This document shows, in pieces, positions 23,149 through 34,689 of a stretch of DNA of 40,833 nucleotides. Position numbers and translations under genes: made by a program. The DNA is from a virus (Duplodnaviria; Heunggongvirae; Uroviricota; Caudoviricetes), in IMG/VR virus record IMGVR_UViG_2534682161_000025, one strand, 5' to 3'. The notes below the pieces were generated by a model. That model made no database searches and had not been told where the DNA came from. It saw only the letters and a list, made by a program, of their open reading frames with translations. Each line of letters begins with the position of its first letter. The stretch's first letter is position 1.

Positions 23149-23441
23149 TCCTGTTCACTGGCCTCTTTGGCCATCTTCAAATACTGTTCAGGGCAATGCG
23201 CCATAACGCGCTGAAACAGTTCCAGCGCCAGATTGCGTTGCCCCTCATTAAATGCCATTGCCATAGCATCCATCGGAGAGATAGCGGAAAACACCCGGCC
23301 TTTCTCCAGCACAGACCAGACAACGCGACGCCCCTGTTCACTGCTCATGACAAAGCGAATGTCATCAATTTCACGTTGTGCCATGTCACGTTGCTTACGG
23401 GCGTTTTCTTCTTTCAGTTGATCGTCTTCGTAATCTGTCAT
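23145..23441 (-). CDS. Hypothetical small acidic head-module protein (98 aa)
   Basis: ATGA-coupled to portal stop and scaffold start. Confidence 0.5.
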   Translation of the reverse strand: MTDYEDDQLKEENARKQRDMAQREIDDIRFVMSSEQGRRVVWSVLEKGRVFSAISPMDAMAMAFNEGQRNLALELFQRVMAHCPEQYLKMAKEASEQE

Positions 23442-25338: not shown

Positions 25339-25428
25339 ATCAATGACTCCGTACGCAATTAAATTATTACCAATTTAACCACATATGATTTATTTATCGT
25401 AGACAGTTGACATTTAACGCACGAATTA

Positions 25429-25443
25429 TTACCTTTCAGGTAA
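25429..25443. promoter_or_regulatory. Dyad site TTACC-tttca-GGTAA (site C), preceded by TTGACA
   Basis: AATTATTACCTTTCAGGTAA; TTGACA at 25407..25412; heads the plus-strand tRNA island. Confidence 0.45.
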
Positions 25444-25765
25444 GCAGAGAGTGCATTCCTGTTATTAACCTGACTGGCTTGTCGTTAAATTGAACAGGTG
25501 GAGTGAGATTTTATTTTGAGCAGTACGGCGTATGGCACATGCGCCGATAGCGGTCTGGATACGTTTAATGGGCACCCTCCCTTGCTCGGGCAAACGAACC
25601 AGGTAGCCGGAATGTGCAAGTCGAGCGGTTTTATTCCGCGCACGGGGATTCACCATCCCGGCGATTCGGTGTGACGCCTCGGAAGAGACGAGGGTGCAAC
25701 GATGAGAGCATTTATGGAGCCGCGACAAAGTGTGGCGCCTTAACAGGCTAAGTGCTCTCAGCGTT

Positions 25766-25842
25766 GTGGCATTAGCTCAGTTGGACAGAGCAACCGCCTT
25801 CTAAGCGGTCGGTCGCAGGTTCGAATCCTGCATGCCACGCCA
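25766..25842 (+). tRNA. tRNA-Arg (anticodon UCU, reads AGA), phage-encoded
   Basis: 77 nt; 7-bp acceptor stem GTGGCAT/ATGCCAC, D-arm GCTC/GAGC, anticodon loop CTTCTAA, T-arm GCAGG-TTCGAAT-CCTGC, encoded CCA; related to but distinct from host argU. Confidence 0.85.
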
Positions 25843-25886
25843 GAATCACGCCTAAGGACCGTGATGCCAGAAGTTCCAGGGGCTTG

Positions 25887-25927
25887 GCGGTGATGGTTTC
25901 CCTTGAAGGACTATCACCGCCCTTTTT
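25887..25927 (+). terminator. Intrinsic terminator after the tRNA
   Basis: ggcggtgat...atcaccgcc stem followed by CTTTTT. Confidence 0.5.
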
Positions 25928-26045
25928 ACAGCAGGACGCCATTGCGATGGCTTCATGCTGTAAACCAGTACAGCCACGGAAGGCATAACTCATTGCTTCC
26001 AGTTCGCCCGGTTCGCCGGGCATTTTTTTAAGGTGAGATTAGACT

Positions 26046-26417
26046 ATGAGTGACAAAGACATTGAATCTGAAATTCAGGCTAAAGGTTTAGCCGCGCCGC
26101 GCGTTACGCCAGACCATATCGAGAGTATTATTGCTCAGGAGGCATATTTCACAGCAGAAGATGGTATCTTTGGCGTAGCCATAAAAGCGAAACATACTGG
26201 CGGAGAGGTAAACTACCAGCCGCACGAATCACTTTCTCTGCTGACGTTCTGCGTTCTGGTGCTGCGCAATGGCTTCACCGTCACCGGAGAGAGCGCCTGT
26301 GCAAGCCCGGAAAACTTTGATGCGGAAATTGGTCGGAAGATTGCCCGGCAGAATGCTGTAAACAAAATCTGGATGCTTGAAGGTTACTTGCTGAAGCAGA
26401 AGTTAAGCGAGCAATAA
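26046..26417 (+). CDS. Conserved phage protein, possibly N4 Gp49 / Sf6 gp66 family; moron
   Basis: 123 aa; ATG with AGGTGAGA SD; family assignment from memory of similar prophage proteins, not verified. Confidence 0.6.
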   Translation: MSDKDIESEIQAKGLAAPRVTPDHIESIIAQEAYFTAEDGIFGVAIKAKHTGGEVNYQPHESLSLLTFCVLVLRNGFTVTGESACASPENFDAEIGRKIARQNAVNKIWMLEGYLLKQKLSEQ

Positions 26418-26421
26418 CACC

Positions 26422-26433
26422 GTGACATGTCAC
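26422..26433. repeat. Perfect 12-bp palindrome GTGACATGTCAC (copy 2 of 3)
   Basis: Lies 4 bp after the stop of the 26046 gene and 4 bp before a terminator hairpin. Confidence 0.8.
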
Positions 26434-26437
26434 AAAC

Positions 26438-26465
26438 AGCCAGCCGATGAGCTGGCTTTGTTTTA
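26438..26465 (+). terminator. Intrinsic terminator
   Basis: agccagc-cgatga-gctggct followed by TTGTTTT. Confidence 0.6.
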
Positions 26466-26507: not shown

Positions 26508-27983
26508 TTAAGCATAGGGATCGTAATCTGTAATGGCCTTGCCTTGCTGGTTCTGCTGCCCGGGAATTCGCAGACGCTTAGACACAGGGAACGCAAACGT
26601 CAGCAGTAGCGCATCGCCTTTACCCGGCGAACGCCCAAGCCGCTCCTTGATATCTTCCTTCGGTTCGATAACGATTTTACCGTCCACTCGAACTTTGTAC
26701 TCTGCCGCCGACAGGTCGTCCGCTGTTTCCTGGTCATCCAGCATGCCGCCCAGCCTCAGCCATGTCTTGCATGAGTTGAACATCTCCCCACGCTTGTTGA
26801 GCATCTGCGGGTCAGTAGACGCGCCACCGAACGGAACAAGTTGCCATGTGCGCCCCCAACCGTCACCGATTGACTTCAGCCCGGTACCGTAACCGAAGTC
26901 GATGAACACCGCGTCAGCCTGATACTGGTCTTCAAAGTCAGCGATACGCTTCGCCATAATCAGATCATCAGTGGTCTTGTTGCCGGTCCACAGCACCTTA
27001 CTATGCAGCCCCTGCCGCAGGTATATCACAGCGTCATCAACGCCGGAGTATGCCGGGTCAACGCCGATTATCACCGGAGCATGTGCAACCTGCGCAGCGG
27101 TTACCACCCGTTTCATTGCCTCGTCAGTAAGTCCGGTAGGGATAAACTGCAATTCAGATGCATCCGGGAATATGCCGCGCACACGGATTTTAACGAAGTC
27201 GCTGTCTTCCCCGTAGTCATCAACCCATTTCTGCAACTGCTGTTTGTTAGTGCCTTCCACCGTCCGGCTGTCAATCTGCGCAGTTTTCCAGCGGTGTTTA
27301 TATTTGCGGAAACATTCGCGGAAACGCCCGGTGTTACGTGTAGGGTTTCCGAACGCCACCCAGATAATCTCAGTGTCTTCGTCCGTAAGCGCACCCTCAG
27401 CAACTTCCCACACCAGATCCGCAATGTTCGACGCTTCATCGAATACCACGATGATGCGTTTGCGCTCGTTGTGTAGTCCGGCGAATGCCTCAGTGTTGTG
27501 CTCAGACCAGGGGATTGCGTCAGCTCGCCACCGCTTGTCGTGCCCAGGATCATTGCTGTACATCGCGGTAGCGGTACAGGTAAACCAGTCTTTCGTGATA
27601 GCAAGGTTCGACCACTTGATAATTTCCGGCCAGGTCTTCGTTCGTAGCTGGTTGTCGGTGTTGGCGGTCACCACGACCTTACAATCCTCGCAAGTGGACA
27701 TGCCCCAGTTGATCAGCATTGAGATGAATGCGGATTTACCAATACCGTGACCAGAAGCGCGTGCCAGCATAAGCGGCTGATAGCGCGTCGCTGGATTCTG
27801 CAGGTGATCACGTATCTCTCGGAACGCATCAGCCTGCCACTGACGTGGGCCGGTAGCATGTGCCAGTTCAGTCCCTTCTTCCCCCCACGGGAACGCATAG
27901 AGGGCATAGCCAAGCGGATCGTGAGTGAACCCTGCAATATCCTCGATCAACTGCTCTTCAGGAGATAACGCTGTATCTGTCAC
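26508..27983 (-). CDS. Terminase large subunit
   Basis: 491 aa; Walker A-like GHGIGKS near the N-terminus; GTG start overlapping small-subunit stop (GTGA). Confidence 0.8.
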   Translation of the reverse strand: MTDTALSPEEQLIEDIAGFTHDPLGYALYAFPWGEEGTELAHATGPRQWQADAFREIRDHLQNPATRYQPLMLARASGHGIGKSAFISMLINWGMSTCEDCKVVVTANTDNQLRTKTWPEIIKWSNLAITKDWFTCTATAMYSNDPGHDKRWRADAIPWSEHNTEAFAGLHNERKRIIVVFDEASNIADLVWEVAEGALTDEDTEIIWVAFGNPTRNTGRFRECFRKYKHRWKTAQIDSRTVEGTNKQQLQKWVDDYGEDSDFVKIRVRGIFPDASELQFIPTGLTDEAMKRVVTAAQVAHAPVIIGVDPAYSGVDDAVIYLRQGLHSKVLWTGNKTTDDLIMAKRIADFEDQYQADAVFIDFGYGTGLKSIGDGWGRTWQLVPFGGASTDPQMLNKRGEMFNSCKTWLRLGGMLDDQETADDLSAAEYKVRVDGKIVIEPKEDIKERLGRSPGKGDALLLTFAFPVSKRLRIPGQQNQQGKAITDYDPYA

Positions 27984-28577
27984 TGATTACCATCCTGACG
28001 TTCTTTGAGTCGCTTCCTGGCTGCTGCTATGCGATCAGCAATTGTCACATTCACATTAACATCCAGACGTTCTTTGAACGCGTTGACATCAACATGCTTA
28101 CCAATCAGCTCAAGGTTCTTCACCTTGTCAGGCCATTTAATTTTTTTGAGGATTGTCTCTATCGAATCCTCGTTCATGTTCATGATGGTCGACGACAGAT
28201 CAAAGCCACTAAGCGTAGTGCGCCAGATTTTCGGCCACTCACGGATTGGTTTAAGGCTCCCATCGTCGTTGAGGATGTCGATCACGTCCATCTGGTCGAT
28301 CTCCACCAGGCGCATGAGAACGTAATCAGCACTGACGCGCATTCGTTTGTTGCGCTCCTCCATCAACTCGGCAATCCGTTTCTGAATGCGTTCATCGCGC
28401 ATCATGACACTGGCTTTAACTGCCGCTGTGTTTGGGGAGAATCCTGCGTTAATCGCTGCCTGAGTCTGGTTTTCAGGCGTTTTGATGTATGACTGGCAAT
28501 AAGCCTCCTGCATTGCTGTGAGCGGCTTAAATTGCGTTGATTTGCGTTTATAGGTTTTAGGTTCAGCAGGCATCATA
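27980..28577 (-). CDS. Terminase small subunit
   Basis: Start refined to ATGATG at 28577/28574 (track ORF extends through an upstream terminator); typical small-terminase helical N-terminal region. Confidence 0.65.
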
Positions 28578-28609
28578 ACCACCGTGGTAATAGTTACCGT
28601 TGTGGTAAT
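28577..28609. promoter_or_regulatory. Two dyad sites (TAACC-accgt-GGTAA and TTACC-gttgt-GGTAA) right upstream of terminase small
   Basis: Centres 18 bp apart; also readable as direct repeat ACTATTACCAC x2 on the minus strand; overlaps the start codon. Confidence 0.4.
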
Positions 28610-28620
28610 AGTACCATGCA

Positions 28621-28645
28621 AAATAAAGCCGCCATAGTTGGCGGC
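28621..28645 (-). terminator. Intrinsic terminator between early genes and terminase
   Basis: gccgcca-tagt-tggcggc hairpin followed on the minus strand by TTTATTT. Confidence 0.5.
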
Positions 28646-28686
28646 AGTATTCAAAATCCATCAAATTCATCATGCATAATCTACTC

Positions 28687-28698
28687 GTGACATGTCAC
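28687..28698. repeat. Perfect 12-bp palindrome GTGACATGTCAC (copy 3 of 3)
   Basis: Between the stop of the 115-aa Cys-cluster gene and the terminator upstream of terminase small. Confidence 0.8.
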
Positions 28699-29042
28699 AC
28701 TATTAATTTCGTTTCATGCCAGCCTTTAGTCACCCAGCATTGCGAGTCACCATTACACGGGCATGAATTAACTGGAACTCTCTCGCCGCACTTACCGCAA
28801 CGTTTTCTGCTGATCGATTTTATACGCCCGCGCACGCGTGCATCATCCTGGCGGATCAGTAACGCGATGTATTCGCTCATTTCATACGGCGCACGACCAG
28901 GGCGACGGGCGGCACAGTTACGCTCCAGCATTTCCTGCTCCTGCTTATCCAGCACCAGTTCAATTTTGCGCTCACCGGCGGCGGACTGCCGAGCGCGCTG
29001 CGCGGCTTTGCGTTCTGCGGGGGATTTAGCCACGAATCGCAC
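28695..29042 (-). CDS. Cys-cluster (putative zinc-binding) basic protein; candidate late-gene regulator
   Basis: 115 aa from GTG; C-terminal CGKCGE...CPCNGDSQC cluster; basic N-terminus; last early gene before terminase. Confidence 0.5.
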   Translation of the reverse strand: MRFVAKSPAERKAAQRARQSAAGERKIELVLDKQEQEMLERNCAARRPGRAPYEMSEYIALLIRQDDARVRGRIKSISRKRCGKCGERVPVNSCPCNGDSQCWVTKGWHETKLIV

Positions 29043-32513: not shown

Positions 32514-33353
32514 TCACAAGAAATCCTCCCACGCTTCAGGGCTGTTCCAGTGCGGAACGTTGTTATCAGGTAATGTTGATTGCTTCTGTCTGCTAATCTG
32601 CAGCCGCCTTGCCAGCTTCTGCTCCCACTGTGCCTGATGGTATGCCTTACCCTCAGCCATCCAGTAAATTCTGAACTCTGCAAGTTCCTGTGCCGTTGGC
32701 AGACTGTCCAGGTAGATTCCCTGCAATGAGCTTTTCCGAAGAAAGTCATCTGATGGTTGCCATTGTTCATGCATGACAAATTTGCCTAATTGCCCTGGCC
32801 CACCAGGAGGAACAAAGTTATTCATCACGGCGTTGTTTGCGCCGGGGTCATGAGGCACAGAATCCCCGGTTTTTGTCCTGCTCCCCCTCTCTTGGTTAAA
32901 TGACTGGTTATATGACTGGTTCTGGATCCCGTTTTTGGGATCATTCAACATCCCGTTTTTGGGATCATTCAACATCCCGTTTTTTGGATCATTCAACATC
33001 CCGTTTTTGGGTATATTCCCGTTTTCGGTAACATTTCCGTTTTCGGGTTCATTACTCCCTTCCCGGTTGCCTTTAATGTTCCCGTTTTTGGTTATATTAA
33101 GAGAGAAAACCCGCACTCTTTTCGTCGCTCCCTTTCTCTCTCCGGTATCTGAAATAAGCCCCATTTTCATGAGCGATATAAGCCCGGCCTGCACGGTTTT
33201 TTTATTCAGGCAAGTGTCTTTAACGAGGCGTTCTATGCTGGGGTAGCAGAGGTTATATTCATCGGCTCTGTCAGCCATCGAGAGCAGTATGAGCTTTAAT
33301 GATGAGCTGCCTGGATCTGTCTCCCAGGCCCAATCTGTTGCATGTCTGCTCAT
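32514..33353 (-). CDS. Replication initiator, O-like, with N-terminal HTH and internal iteron-encoded peptide repeats
   Basis: HTH-like N-terminus; three tandem NGMLNDPK repeats encoded by DNA iterons; precedes the P-like gene. Confidence 0.7.
   Translation of the reverse strand: MSRHATDWAWETDPGSSSLKLILLSMADRADEYNLCYPSIERLVKDTCLNKKTVQAGLISLMKMGLISDTGERKGATKRVRVFSLNITKNGNIKGNREGSNEPENGNVTENGNIPKNGMLNDPKNGMLNDPKNGMLNDPKNGIQNQSYNQSFNQERGSRTKTGDSVPHDPGANNAVMNNFVPPGGPGQLGKFVMHEQWQPSDDFLRKSSLQGIYLDSLPTAQELAEFRIYWMAEGKAYHQAQWEQKLARRLQISRQKQSTLPDNNVPHWNSPEAWEDFL
32925..33095. repeat. Origin-like iteron array inside the O-like gene
   Basis: Seven copies of CCCGTTTT(T/C)GG; first four in a 24-bp unit GGGATCATTCAACATCCCGTTTTT with internal GGGAT/ATCCC dyad, then 18-bp spaced degenerate copies. 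Confidence 0.75.
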
Positions 33354-33368
33354 GATTAATCTCCGCTA

Positions 33369-33569
33369 TCAGCTTGAATGTTGTGGGGAGGAATTAATCA
33401 TGATCTGCTTAATCTCTGCCCTAATGCGACGGTTTGATTCCATGGTGCACTCAACACAGTGTCCGTTGTAAACCCAGCGTTCACTGTCATGTCCGTGCTT
33501 ACATGGTTTTCCGGTGTAGTAGCGTTTAAGTCCGCGCTTTGCGGCATCAATACGTGTAATGATTTCCAT
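33369..33569 (-). CDS. Small zinc-ribbon protein (66 aa)
   Basis: ATG at 33569; CKHGH...CVEC pattern; between cro-like and O-like genes. Confidence 0.45.
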   Translation of the reverse strand: MEIITRIDAAKRGLKRYYTGKPCKHGHDSERWVYNGHCVECTMESNRRIRAEIKQIMINSSPQHSS

Positions 33570-33975: not shown

Positions 33976-34049
33976 ATAATAAATATTCACCCATAAGGTA
34001 ACAAAAATCAAGGATAGTTACCTATGAGGTGCATTTACCTGTTGGGTAA
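33976..34049. promoter_or_regulatory. Immunity-region operator/promoter cluster: three dyad sites plus a PR-like promoter
   Basis: Sites TCACC-cataa-GGTAA (33987), TTACC-tatga-GGTGC (34018), TTACC-tgttg-GGTAA (34035); minus-strand TTGTTA (33999..34004), 17 bp, TATTAT (33976..33981) overlapping the first site. Confidence 0.5.
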
Positions 34050-34104: not shown

Positions 34105-34689
34105 ATGAAAAGTATCCAGGACGTCCGCAGGCAAAATCTCAACGACTTGATCGACCGTGAATTCAATGGTGTTCAGACGCGGATGGCAGAAAAACTTGGA
34201 ACTCAGGCAAATCTGGTAAACCGCTGGGCTCTTGGCAAGAAGGTTATCGGCGACCAGGTTGCGCGAAAAATTGAAGCTGCCGCCAATAAACCCCGTAACT
34301 GGCTTGATATCGATCGCTCGCTTTCTCAGGAAGGTTTTCAGCCTGTCGGCCCAAGCGACATTGGTCAGCTGGCGGCTCACAACCTGGAACGCTGGATGAG
34401 CGAAAGCCGCGACCTTTCAACACAGGGAAAACTTCACCGCGCATCCGGCGTCGCCCAGGTGACAATCAGCCGCCTGTTAAACAATGAGGTCAGCGTTTCC
34501 ATTTCCACCCTGGAGAATGTTGCATCTGCATTCGGGCGTCACGGATATGAACTACTGATTCATCCGCATGACCCTGCAACTATCAACTATGACCGCTCGC
34601 GCTACGCATTGTTACCTGAAACAGAGAAGGCAAAGATCGAAAGTTACATTGAATTTGTCATCAACCAGAACGAAAAAAACAAACAATAA
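34105..34689 (+). CDS. Candidate prophage repressor: two-HTH DNA-binding protein, no recognisable LexA-like autocleavage domain
   Basis: 194 aa; HTH-like segments near residues 25-45 and 110-135 (SGVAQVTISRLLNNE); own terminator downstream. Confidence 0.5.
   Translation: MKSIQDVRRQNLNDLIDREFNGVQTRMAEKLGTQANLVNRWALGKKVIGDQVARKIEAAANKPRNWLDIDRSLSQEGFQPVGPSDIGQLAAHNLERWMSESRDLSTQGKLHRASGVAQVTISRLLNNEVSVSISTLENVASAFGRHGYELLIHPHDPATINYDRSRYALLPETEKAKIESYIEFVINQNEKNKQ

What the first reader, a model, noticed from the sequence alone, without database searches (positions are those of the whole stretch)
28621..29042. Candidate late-gene control point: Cys-cluster protein, palindrome and terminator immediately upstream of terminase
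I could not recognise a lambda Q or N homologue. The last early gene (115 aa, basic N-terminus, C-terminal Cys cluster) is followed by palindrome copy 3, a terminator that would block readthrough into the late operon, and two dyad sites at the terminase start. This looks like a qut/tR-prime-type or Ogr/Delta-type late switch with a non-standard factor.
Basis: inference. Interest (0 to 1): 0.55.

Follow-up and report, generated by a model that had tools for sequence, protein, structure and literature searches.

The report
Phage regulator with terminator-linked palindrome operator
The last early gene of this epsilon15-like phage encodes a small DNA-binding protein whose probable target, a 12-base palindrome over its own stop codon, recurs beside terminators at operon ends, which marks an untested control point between early and late genes.

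Summary
The window is an epsilon15/phiV10-like (Uetakevirus) genome. The gene is more likely 112 than 115 aa. It belongs to PHROG 536 (epsilon15 gp49, N15 gp46) and has no Pfam or NCBIfam hit. The model looks like a ribbon-helix-helix fold followed by a conserved four-cysteine motif.

New here: the palindrome YGTGAC-NN-GTCACR travels with this gene family. It overlaps the stop codon in Citrobacter, Klebsiella, Pantoea and Xenorhabdus prophages, phiKO2 and a P2-like Yersinia phage, even where the downstream DNA is unrelated. It is most likely the protein's operator.

Three exact copies lie at the 3' ends of three transcription units, each near an intrinsic terminator. The same three sites occur in epsilon15 and Tyrion.

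The "two dyads" are 2 of 10 copies of the immunity-repressor operator ATTACC-N5-GGTAAT. They overlap a conserved extended -10 promoter for terS.

The "late switch" reading is only partly supported. The protein is not a Q or Ogr homologue, and its relatives coexist with Q and Ogr elsewhere. Whether it promotes read-through or blocks it is unresolved. This is a new variant of a known kind, of moderate interest.

The parts
28695..29033 (-). Gene for the 112-aa regulator with a predicted ribbon-helix-helix fold and a C-terminal four-cysteine motif. The alternative GTG at 29042 gives 115 aa. It is the last gene of the early-right operon.
28687..28698 (.). PAL1: the palindrome GTGACATGTCAC, which contains the gene's TGA stop codon. 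Probable cognate operator.
   Evidence: 4 matches against 0.02 expected. The same motif lies 0-14 nt from the stop codon in 23 of 34 genome loci, and at the stop in phiKO2, the Yersinia phage and Pantoea AH07.
28620..28645 (-). T1: intrinsic terminator, GCCGCC-AACTAT-GGCGGC followed by TTTATTTT.
   Evidence: Folding energy -13.8 kcal/mol, z = -4.4. Conserved in 7 relatives.
28608..28616 (-). Candidate extended -10 promoter element TGGTACTAT for terS. This is inferred from sequence only.
   Evidence: Read from the sequence. TGnTAnTAT is conserved in epsilon15, L009, L010, L011, TL-2011b, ZX5 and Tyrion. The consensus promoter scan did not find it, because it has no -35 element.
28575..28609 (.). 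Two immunity-repressor operator copies (28593-28609 and 28575-28591). The second contains the terS ribosome-binding site.
   Evidence: The equivalent epsilon15 site is annotated as a repressor binding site.
27980..28573 (-). terS, the small terminase subunit.
   Evidence: Pfam Terminase_2 at 1.4e-29. Start codon taken from the TL-2011b and ZX5 annotation.
26508..27983 (-). terL, the large terminase subunit.
   Evidence: Annotation of relatives.
26422..26433 (.). PAL2: an exact copy lying between the convergent genes terL (-) and ORF123 (+).
   Evidence: It is always 4 nt from the hairpin in 9 viral contigs. In Tyrion it stays with the ORF123 homologue.
26438..26465 (+). T2: intrinsic terminator of the plus-strand island, 4 nt after PAL2.
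26046..26417 (+). ORF123 (Pfam Phage_gp49_66), the last gene of an island that runs antisense to the late genes.
9191..9202 (.). PAL3: an exact copy at the end of the structural operon, abutting T3 and facing the antirepressor gene.
   Evidence: It lies 0-2 nt from the hairpin in 12 viral contigs whose upstream genes differ.
9165..9190 (-). T3: intrinsic terminator, AGGCCGC-TTTC-GCGGCCT followed by TTTCTTTA.
8892..9167 (+). Antirepressor-like gene with a LexA box at 8873-8888. It converges on PAL3 and T3.
   Evidence: PHROG 450 and 1760. LexA box. Tyrion gp20 is annotated as an anti-repressor.
34105..34689 (+). Immunity repressor gene. Its operators lie at 34034, 34746 (a perfect copy) and 34808.

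Best explanation
The 112-aa product most likely binds DNA as a ribbon-helix-helix dimer and carries a C-terminal four-cysteine motif that probably binds zinc. Its cognate operator is the palindrome YGTGAC-NN-GTCACR (PAL).

The gene and the operator form one cassette, because the operator overlaps the gene's own stop codon. The phage keeps three operators. Each lies at the 3' end of a transcription unit, next to an intrinsic terminator:
- PAL1-T1 lies between the early-right operon and terS-terL.
- PAL2-T2 lies behind the antisense tRNA/ORF123 island, facing terL.
- PAL3-T3 lies at the end of the structural operon, facing the antirepressor gene.

The protein is made last from the early operon. 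I infer that it acts on RNA polymerase as it crosses unit boundaries, as a gate coupled to terminators.

At this locus the gate sits in front of terS. terS probably also has its own extended -10 promoter under two immunity-repressor operators.

Basis of each step:
- Shown by computation: the anatomy, its conservation and the gene-operator linkage.
- Inferred: DNA binding, dimer formation, zinc binding and any effect on transcription.
- Not shown: the direction of the gate. For PAL1-T1 I lean towards delayed read-through into terS-terL, which is Q-like in logic but not in family. The PAL2 and PAL3 geometry fits a barrier better.
For: Gene-operator linkage:
- There are 31 PALs in 172 kb around the gene in 34 genomes, where about 0.16 would be expected. 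Of the 34 loci, 23 have a PAL 0-14 nt from the stop codon, even where the downstream DNA is unrelated.
- PAL is also at the stop codon in phiKO2, a P2-like Yersinia phage and Pantoea AH07.
- Relatives only 35-44% identical keep PALs. Vibrio K233 has 3 and phiKO2 has 3 identical copies.
- Of 80 IMG/VR stretches holding the 14-mer, 41 carry the gene or Uetakevirus marker genes.

Coupling to terminators: the same three PAL positions occur in the window, epsilon15 and Tyrion. PAL3 is always 0-2 nt from its hairpin and PAL2 always 4 nt, although the flanking genes differ. Of 49 stop-codon PALs, 20 have a strict terminator within 101 nt. T1 is strong and conserved.

For the read-through leaning:
- The gene is the last early gene before the terminase or lysis genes in Uetakevirus and in Vibrio K233.
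- No Q, N or Ogr family hit was found in either phage.
- In K233 the gene is followed by a PAL, a promoter-like site, a strong terminator and then the holin gene. Another PAL lies 19 nt before the terS start codon.
Against: - No experiment or transcript data exist for any family member.
- Ribbon-helix-helix proteins are nearly all repressors, and none is known as an antiterminator.
- The family coexists with a Q-like protein in phiKO2 and with a 72-aa regulator gene at the ogr position in the Yersinia phage.
- terS and other late units carry immunity-repressor operators. terS also has a conserved extended -10 element. Late genes may therefore need no extra factor.
- Read-through at PAL2-T2 would send antisense transcripts into terL.
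- About 60% of stop-codon PALs have no nearby terminator.
- In several contexts PAL lies 0-9 nt before the ribosome-binding site of a co-directional gene, or 6-7 nt before the -35 of a promoter with a LexA box. Its role may therefore depend on context.
Confidence: 0.4

Rival explanations
1. Barrier or insulator only. The PAL-bound dimer is a roadblock. It turns one-way intrinsic terminators into two-way stops and seals unit boundaries during lytic growth. Late units fire from their own repressor-controlled promoters. The protein is not a late activator.
For: - PAL2 and PAL3 lie 0-4 nt from the hairpin, on the side that lacks the T-run, at convergent junctions (terL against ORF123, and the structural operon against the antirepressor gene).
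- In P2-like prophages the PAL and terminator lie at the end of the early operon and face minus-strand ORFs that I did not identify. One locus (L020) has 0-nt spacing.
- Ribbon-helix-helix proteins are typically repressors.
- Ten repressor operators, including ones at the late units, point to autonomous promoters.
- This reading is compatible with the coexistence of Q and Ogr.
Against: - In Vibrio K233 a PAL lies 19 nt before the terS start codon. In at least 7 other contexts PAL lies directly before the ribosome-binding site of a co-directional gene, with no room for a promoter. A strong roadblock there would silence downstream genes, including terminase.
- At PAL1 the roadblock would be redundant with the strong terminator T1.
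Confidence: 0.25
2. Conventional promoter regulator, comparable to the P22 Arc and Mnt proteins that control the antirepressor gene. The protein represses or activates promoters next to PAL, in particular SOS-controlled antirepressor promoters. Its place beside the terminase genes is incidental.
For: - In 8 loci PAL lies 6-7 nt upstream of the -35 of a promoter carrying a LexA box, although the spacer sequences differ.
- phiKO2 has a PAL in the leader of its antirepressor operon.
- In the Yersinia phage PAL precedes a gene with a LexA box.
- P22 Arc and Mnt are ribbon-helix-helix regulators of the antirepressor gene (established knowledge).
Against: - In the window PAL3 lies at the 3' end of the antirepressor gene, about 300 nt from its promoter.
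- PAL1 and PAL2 are not next to any recognisable promoter.
- The PAL-to-promoter distance is not constant across contexts: about -47.5 in the loci with a LexA-box promoter and about -66 in phiKO2.
Confidence: 0.15
3. RNA-level action. The transcribed palindrome forms a small hairpin (GUGA-CNNG-UCAC). The protein binds it through its basic N-terminal helix or its cysteine motif. Binding then modulates the adjacent terminator hairpin, the translation of the next gene, or the stability of the transcript's 3' end.
For: - PAL is always in transcribed DNA.
- It is often 0-9 nt before a ribosome-binding site or 0-4 nt from a terminator stem.
- The predicted RNA folds show the small hairpin stacked directly against the terminator hairpin.
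- The Com protein of phage Mu is a zinc-finger protein that binds an RNA hairpin (established knowledge).
Against: - Both arms are invariant in sequence, and no compensatory changes are seen.
- The flanking bases include C...A combinations that cannot pair.
- A 4-bp stem is weak.
- The predicted fold and an exact palindrome point to binding of double-stranded DNA.
Confidence: 0.08
4. DNA organisation or packaging, comparable to MatP binding matS. The protein bridges or marks phage DNA at dispersed sites, two of which bracket terS-terL, and does not regulate transcription.
For: - The PAL half-sites (GTGAC) are identical to those of matS, GTGAC[AG]N[TC]GTCAC (PMC3603311, PMC3116907).
- There are three dispersed sites per genome. 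PAL1 and PAL2 flank the terminase genes. In K233 a PAL lies in the gap between the HNH endonuclease gene and terS.
Against: - The central spacing differs, 2 nt against 3 nt.
- There is no sequence homology to MatP. Profile comparison gave a probability below 1%, and no MatP Pfam domain is hit.
- The phiKO2 and Yersinia sites are far from the cos site and the terminase genes.
- The fixed juxtaposition with terminators is not explained.
Confidence: 0.07

Closest known systems
Lambda Q with its qut site, the PR' promoter and the tR' terminator
   Same: - The regulator gene is the last early gene and its DNA site lies immediately downstream, forming a cassette.
- A strong terminator stands between the site and the late genes.
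- Lambda Q also binds zinc.
- Vibrio K233 shows the order gene, PAL, promoter-like site, terminator, holin gene.
   Different: - There is no sequence similarity and the predicted fold differs.
- The site is an exact palindrome and is not embedded at a fixed place in a promoter.
- There are three sites per genome.
- The family coexists with a Q-like protein in phiKO2.
- No promoter-proximal pause element was identified.
Ogr of P2, Delta of P4 and B of phage 186 (zinc-finger late activators)
   Same: - It is a small phage protein with four conserved cysteines.
- There are several dyad sites in the late region.
- In the P2-like Yersinia phage the gene sits just after gene A, where phage 186 carries its B gene.
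   Different: - There is no hit to the Ogr/Delta family.
- The cysteine spacing is CxxC-x8-C-x7-C rather than CxxC-x22-Cx4C.
- The sites are GTGAC-N2-GTCAC and not TGT-N12-ACA at -55.
- The Yersinia phage also carries a 72-aa regulator gene at the P2 ogr position.
MatP and its matS sites (organiser of the E. coli terminus macrodomain)
   Same: - Both proteins have a ribbon-helix-helix fold (predicted here) preceded by a basic helix.
- The 5-bp half-sites (GTGAC) are identical.
- The hosts overlap: Enterobacterales and Vibrio.
   Different: - The site is 12 bp rather than 13 bp.
- No sequence homology is detectable.
- The protein lacks MatP's four-helix bundle and coiled coil and has a cysteine motif instead.
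- The sites lie at operon ends in a phage.
Arc and Mnt of phage P22, and other ribbon-helix-helix repressors (CopG, antitoxins)
   Same: - The predicted fold is the same and the operator is a short palindrome.
- It is a phage-encoded regulator found near antirepressor modules.
   Different: - It has an extra cysteine motif and a conserved basic N-terminal helix.
- The operator lies at the 3' end of its own gene and beside terminators, not at its own promoter.
Epsilon15 gp49, N15 gp46 and phiKO2 gp45 (PHROG 536, labelled 'transcriptional regulator')
   Same: These are true homologues, 35-97% identical, with the same length, the same cysteines and the palindrome at the stop codon.
   Different: None of them has been characterised. 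The label rests on annotation alone.

Membership tests
PHROG 536 (epsilon15 gp49 / N15 gp46 family) | Full-length similarity to the family profile | tested here: met
   E = 4.6e-54 over residues 5-114 of 115. tblastn matches epsilon15, Tyrion, SPN1S and phiKO2. There are 155 representative proteins at E < 1e-3.
PHROG 536 (epsilon15 gp49 / N15 gp46 family) | Conserved four-cysteine motif and basic N-terminal RK..QR.R motif | tested here: met
   Alignments A1 and A3. C79 and C82 are invariant and C99, P87 and G95 are at least 90% conserved across 58 diverse relatives. C91 is invariant only in the narrower alignments.
Lambda Q-type antiterminators | Sequence membership in the Q families of Pfam | tested here: not met
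   No Pfam, NCBIfam or PHROG antiterminator hit.
Lambda Q-type antiterminators | Binding site inside a late promoter with a sigma-dependent promoter-proximal pause | tested here: inconclusive
   One weak promoter-like match uses the palindrome as its -35 (GTGACA-18-CATGAT, 9 of 12). The spacing is not conserved, because the palindrome-to-terminator spacer is 41 nt here and 23 nt in epsilon15.
Lambda Q-type antiterminators | Terminator between the site and the late genes, read through only when the factor is present | not testable with these tools
   The terminator T1 is present and strong. Testing read-through needs transcript data.
Ogr/Delta zinc-finger late activators | Ogr_Delta domain with CxxC-x22-Cx4C | tested here: not met
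   No Pfam hit. The cysteine spacing is CxxC-x8-C-x7-C.
Ogr/Delta zinc-finger late activators | TGT-N12-ACA dyads centred near -55 of the late promoters | tested here: not met
   The sites are GTGAC-N2-GTCAC and lie at the 3' ends of units.
Ribbon-helix-helix (Arc/MetJ/CopG) superfamily | Strand-helix-helix fold | tested here: met
Ribbon-helix-helix (Arc/MetJ/CopG) superfamily | Significant match to a ribbon-helix-helix sequence family | tested here: inconclusive
   Only sub-threshold hits were found in some relatives: RepB-RCR_reg, RHH_5, RHH_1 and TacA1, at E = 0.01-0.07.
Ribbon-helix-helix (Arc/MetJ/CopG) superfamily | Dimer binding to a palindromic operator | not testable with these tools
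   This is inferred from the co-occurrence of gene and palindrome. It needs gel-shift assays or a structure.
MatP/matS | MatP N-terminal and C-terminal domains | tested here: not met
   No Pfam hit. Profile comparison with MatP gave a probability of 0.25%.
MatP/matS | 13-bp site GTGAC[AG]N[TC]GTCAC | tested here: not met
   The half-sites are identical but the centre is 2 nt. No 13-bp matS is present in the window.

The most novel reading that the evidence does not exclude
The protein would be the founding member of a new class of phage factors that control termination. A ribbon-helix-helix protein with a cysteine motif would be loaded at a palindromic DNA site with matS-like half-sites. It would then decide locally whether RNA polymerase reads through or stops at the adjacent intrinsic terminator. 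In epsilon15-like phages and in some Vibrio phages it would replace Q as the timer between early and late genes. In N15-like and P2-like phages it would gate other terminators.
Probability: 0.2. Interest if true: 0.8.

Novelty: new variant of a known kind. Interest (0 to 1): 0.55.

Why it matters
Epsilon15/phiV10-like prophages are common in Salmonella, E. coli O157, Klebsiella and Citrobacter. As far as I could find, how they switch on their late genes has not been described.

This work gives a concrete and testable pair, one small protein and one 12-bp site. The pair is conserved across podophages, N15-like phage-plasmids, P2-like phages and Vibrio siphophages, and the sites lie against terminators.

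If the protein controls read-through, it would be a new way to build a phage timing switch, and a compact part for synthetic circuits. If it is a barrier, it shows how compact phage genomes insulate convergent units.

The shared half-site with the host matS also raises the question of cross-talk with chromosome organisation.

Tried and rejected
- **Sequence families.** Pfam and NCBIfam scans of the protein found nothing.
- **Solved structures.** Foldseek against the PDB gave nothing for the monomer model. A profile search against PDB sequences gave nothing.
- **MatP homology.** Profile comparison of the family with MatP was not significant. I spent my last homologue search on MatP and it returned only 98-100% identical sequences, so I could not build a MatP profile.
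- **The palindrome as a -35 element.** The spacing to a -10-like element is not conserved, and PAL3 has no -10 element at all. I rejected this as a general reading.
- **Sigma-70 late promoters.** The consensus scan found none on the late strand upstream of gp3 or the tailspike gene.
- **Known RNA families.** Rfam gave only the tRNA at the curated threshold. A weak rseX-like match (28.6 bits against a threshold of 50) covers PAL1 to T1 and rests mainly on the terminator, so I rejected it.
- **Literature.** No paper holds the palindrome sequence. The vB_EcoP_ZX5 paper says nothing about late control. The SPC32H repressor paper (PMC3807360) is not held.
- **Packaging role.** I considered it, but the phiKO2 and Yersinia sites are not near the cos site or the terminase genes.
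- **Coding constraint as the cause of the palindrome.** I rejected this because 8 of its 12 bases lie after the stop codon and the C-terminal residues differ between relatives.

Full report
**What the window is.** The region around the finding matches epsilon15/phiV10/TL-2011b-like podophages (genus Uetakevirus) at 94-98% identity. The genes in question run on the minus strand. After that come terS (27980-28573) and terL (26508-27983). The finding therefore lies at the junction between the early-right operon and the packaging genes.

**Checking the observation.**
- The ORF 28695-29042 (-) exists. Relatives are almost all 112 aa, so GTG 29033 is the likelier start. It overlaps the upstream ORF by 8 nt.
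- GTGACATGTCAC lies at 28687-28698 and contains the TGA stop codon. Exact copies lie at 9191 and 26422, and a variant with a CC centre lies at 2590. That is 4 matches to GTGACNNGTCAC against 0.02 expected.
- The terminator has its stem at 28645-28628, followed by TTTATTTT, and folds at -13.8 kcal/mol (z = -4.4). It is conserved in seven relatives.
- The two dyads, at 28575-28591 and 28593-28609, are real.

**The protein.**
- It has no Pfam or NCBIfam hit. It matches PHROG 536, labelled 'transcriptional regulator', at E = 5e-54. Epsilon15 gp49, N15 gp46 and phiKO2 gp45 are homologues.
- An exhaustive search found only 155 representative proteins at E < 1e-3 among 1.84 billion.
- Alignments of relatives down to about 25% identity keep a basic N-terminal motif (RK..QR.R) and a PY...EY...LI motif. 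Two cysteines are invariant and a third nearly so. The fourth is invariant among closer relatives.
- The AlphaFold2 model (pLDDT 80) has a helix at 5-18, an extended segment, helices at 30-41 and 52-75, and then the cysteine knuckle.
- Some relatives give sub-threshold Pfam hits to ribbon-helix-helix families.
- I conclude that the fold is ribbon-helix-helix plus a four-cysteine motif. This holds at the level of fold only.

**The main new result: the palindrome belongs to the gene.**
- I fetched 34 genomic loci that encode relatives. GTGAC-NN-GTCAC lies 0-14 nt after the stop codon in 23 of them (Citrobacter, Klebsiella, Pantoea, Xenorhabdus and others).
- The stop codon is usually the TGA inside G-TGA-C. 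This holds even where the DNA beyond the palindrome is unrelated.
- In all, 28 of the 34 loci hold at least one copy. That is 31 copies in 172 kb, where about 0.16 would be expected.
- The palindrome is also at the stop codon in phiKO2, a P2-like Yersinia phage and Pantoea AH07.
- Vibrio phage K233, whose protein is 37% identical, has three copies elsewhere. phiKO2 has three identical copies.
- The flanking bases extend the motif to YGTGAC-NN-GTCACR.
- Of 80 IMG/VR stretches that hold the 14-mer, 41 carry the gene or Uetakevirus marker genes.
- Eight of the 12 bases lie after the stop codon and the C-termini differ, so coding constraint cannot explain the conservation.
- The palindrome (PAL) is therefore most likely the protein's operator. 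No paper in the library holds this sequence.

**Where the copies sit.** The window, epsilon15 and Tyrion keep the same three positions.
- PAL1 lies at the regulator's stop codon, 41 nt before T1 here and 23 nt in epsilon15.
- PAL2 lies between terL and a plus-strand island. The island holds tRNA-Arg (25766-25842) and ORF123 (26046-26417, Pfam Phage_gp49_66). PAL2 is 4 nt before the island's terminator T2.
- PAL3 lies at the end of the structural operon and abuts T3. It faces an antirepressor-like gene on the plus strand that has a LexA box.
- Across viral contigs PAL3 is always 0-2 nt from its hairpin and PAL2 always 4 nt, although the neighbouring genes differ. In Tyrion PAL2 stays with the ORF123 homologue.
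- PAL plus terminator is therefore a conserved composite module.

**The dyads.**
- They match ATTACC-N5-GGTAAT, which the epsilon15 record annotates as repressor binding sites.
- The window has 10 copies with 1 mismatch or fewer, against 0.02 expected. They flank the repressor gene (34034, 34746, 34808). Others precede terS (two copies), the gp3 unit, the divergent region between the tailspike and antirepressor genes, and the lysis unit. Two more lie between the P gene and the DUF1064 gene.
- Directly after T1 lies TGGTACTAT. This extended -10 motif is conserved as TGnTAnTAT in all aligned relatives, and its last two bases begin the first operator.
- terS therefore probably has its own repressor-controlled promoter. 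This is inferred from sequence.

**Mechanism.** The steps shown by computation are the cassette of gene plus operator and the coupling of operators to terminators at unit ends. The effect on transcription is inferred. Two directions are possible.

*For read-through (licence):*
- The gene is the last early gene before the late genes in two unrelated phage groups. I found no Q, N or Ogr family hit in either.
- PAL precedes T1 and T3 in the late direction.
- In K233 the order is gene, PAL, promoter-like site, strong terminator, holin gene. Another PAL lies 19 nt before the terS start codon.
- Many PALs lie directly before the ribosome-binding site of a co-directional gene, where a strong block would make little sense.

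*For a barrier:*
- Ribbon-helix-helix proteins are nearly all repressors.
- At the convergent junctions PAL2 and PAL3 lie against the hairpin on the side without a T-run. A bound dimer there would stop polymerase coming from the other direction.
- Read-through at T2 would send antisense RNA into terL.
- The late units carry their own repressor operators.

*Against the idea of a universal late factor:* relatives coexist with a Q-like protein in phiKO2 and with a 72-aa regulator gene at the ogr position in the Yersinia phage. Only 20 of 49 stop-codon PALs have a strict terminator within 101 nt.

*A third context:* in 8 loci PAL lies 6-7 nt before the -35 of a promoter with a LexA box. This recalls Arc and Mnt control of the P22 antirepressor gene.

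My estimates: 0.4 that the protein is a terminator-coupled gate at unit boundaries, with a slight lean to read-through at PAL1-T1. The rivals are barrier only (0.25), conventional promoter regulator (0.15), RNA-level action (0.08) and DNA organisation or packaging (0.07).

**Comparison with known systems.**
- The logic resembles lambda Q with its qut site and the tR' terminator. The cysteines recall Ogr. Both memberships fail the sequence and site tests.
- The family itself is uncharacterised.

**Verdict.** The "late switch" reading is partly supported, and the direction of action is open. This is a new variant of a known kind. Interest is 0.55.

Noticed in passing
window 25766-25842 (+): A tRNA-Arg (anticodon TCT) gene lies antisense to the late genes between terL and gp3. 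A promoter-like site at 25400-25429 (+) has a -10 element that overlaps a repressor operator (25428-25444). Plus-strand terminator-like hairpins follow at 25886-25921 and 26006-26021.
   Followed up: partly
window 38446-38745 (+): A PerC-family gene (Pfam PF06069, E = 6e-7; PHROG 868 'transcriptional activator') lies in the early-left operon. It is another candidate regulator with no known target here.
   Followed up: partly
window 8873-8888 and 25958-25973: A LexA box (CTGTATAAACATACAG) lies upstream of the antirepressor-like gene 8892-9167 (+). A second sequence of the form CTGT-N8-ACAG (CTGTAAACCAGTACAG) lies upstream of ORF123.
   Followed up: partly
window 2590-2601 and 23378-23389: A fourth GTGAC-NN-GTCAC (centre CC) lies inside the holin gene. 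A copy with one mismatch (GTGCCATGTCAC) lies in the small gene after the portal gene. Neither is conserved in epsilon15 or Tyrion.
   Followed up: partly
window 28621-28706 (-): There is a sub-threshold Rfam match to the sRNA rseX (28.6 bits against a threshold of 50, E = 0.06-0.2) spanning PAL1 to T1. It rests mostly on the terminator and is probably not meaningful.
   Followed up: yes
window 28565-28620 (-): The predicted terS leader RNA folds into a long hairpin, formed by the two operator dyads, that buries the GGUGG ribbosome-binding site and the AUG. The whole 141-nt stretch has z = -3.3.
   Followed up: no
window 32936-32979 (+): Two tandem copies of TGGGATCATTCAACATCCCG lie inside the O-like replication gene. 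They are probably origin iterons.
   Followed up: no
L043 (Vibrio phage K233) 33227-33514 and 35942: After the regulator gene come a PAL, a promoter-like site (33336-33364), a 12-bp-stem terminator (33469-33495) and the holin gene. This resembles the lambda layout of late promoter, terminator and holin. Another PAL lies 19 nt before the terS start codon.
   Followed up: partly
L044 (phiKO2) 31182, 36062, 41939: There are three identical palindromes (GTGACTGGTCAC). One lies at the gp45 stop codon. One lies in the leader of the antirepressor operon, about 115 nt before its terminator. One lies inside the replicase gene.
   Followed up: partly
L007, L008, L012, L047, L048, L051, L065, L076: In these relatives the terminator after PAL1 is replaced by a promoter with a LexA box. 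Its -35 starts 6-7 nt after the palindrome, although the spacer sequences differ. A small gene follows, and then terS.
   Followed up: partly
L025, L032, L037, L038 (Providencia and Proteus prophages): These relatives have no palindrome at the stop codon. Instead one lies 1.0-1.3 kb upstream. In the two loci I read (L025 and L038) it lies inside the early operon, directly before the ribosome-binding site of a gene. In L038, and by sequence in L037, a different hairpin (TTGGTTGAC...GTCAACCAA) lies between the regulator gene and terS.
   Followed up: partly
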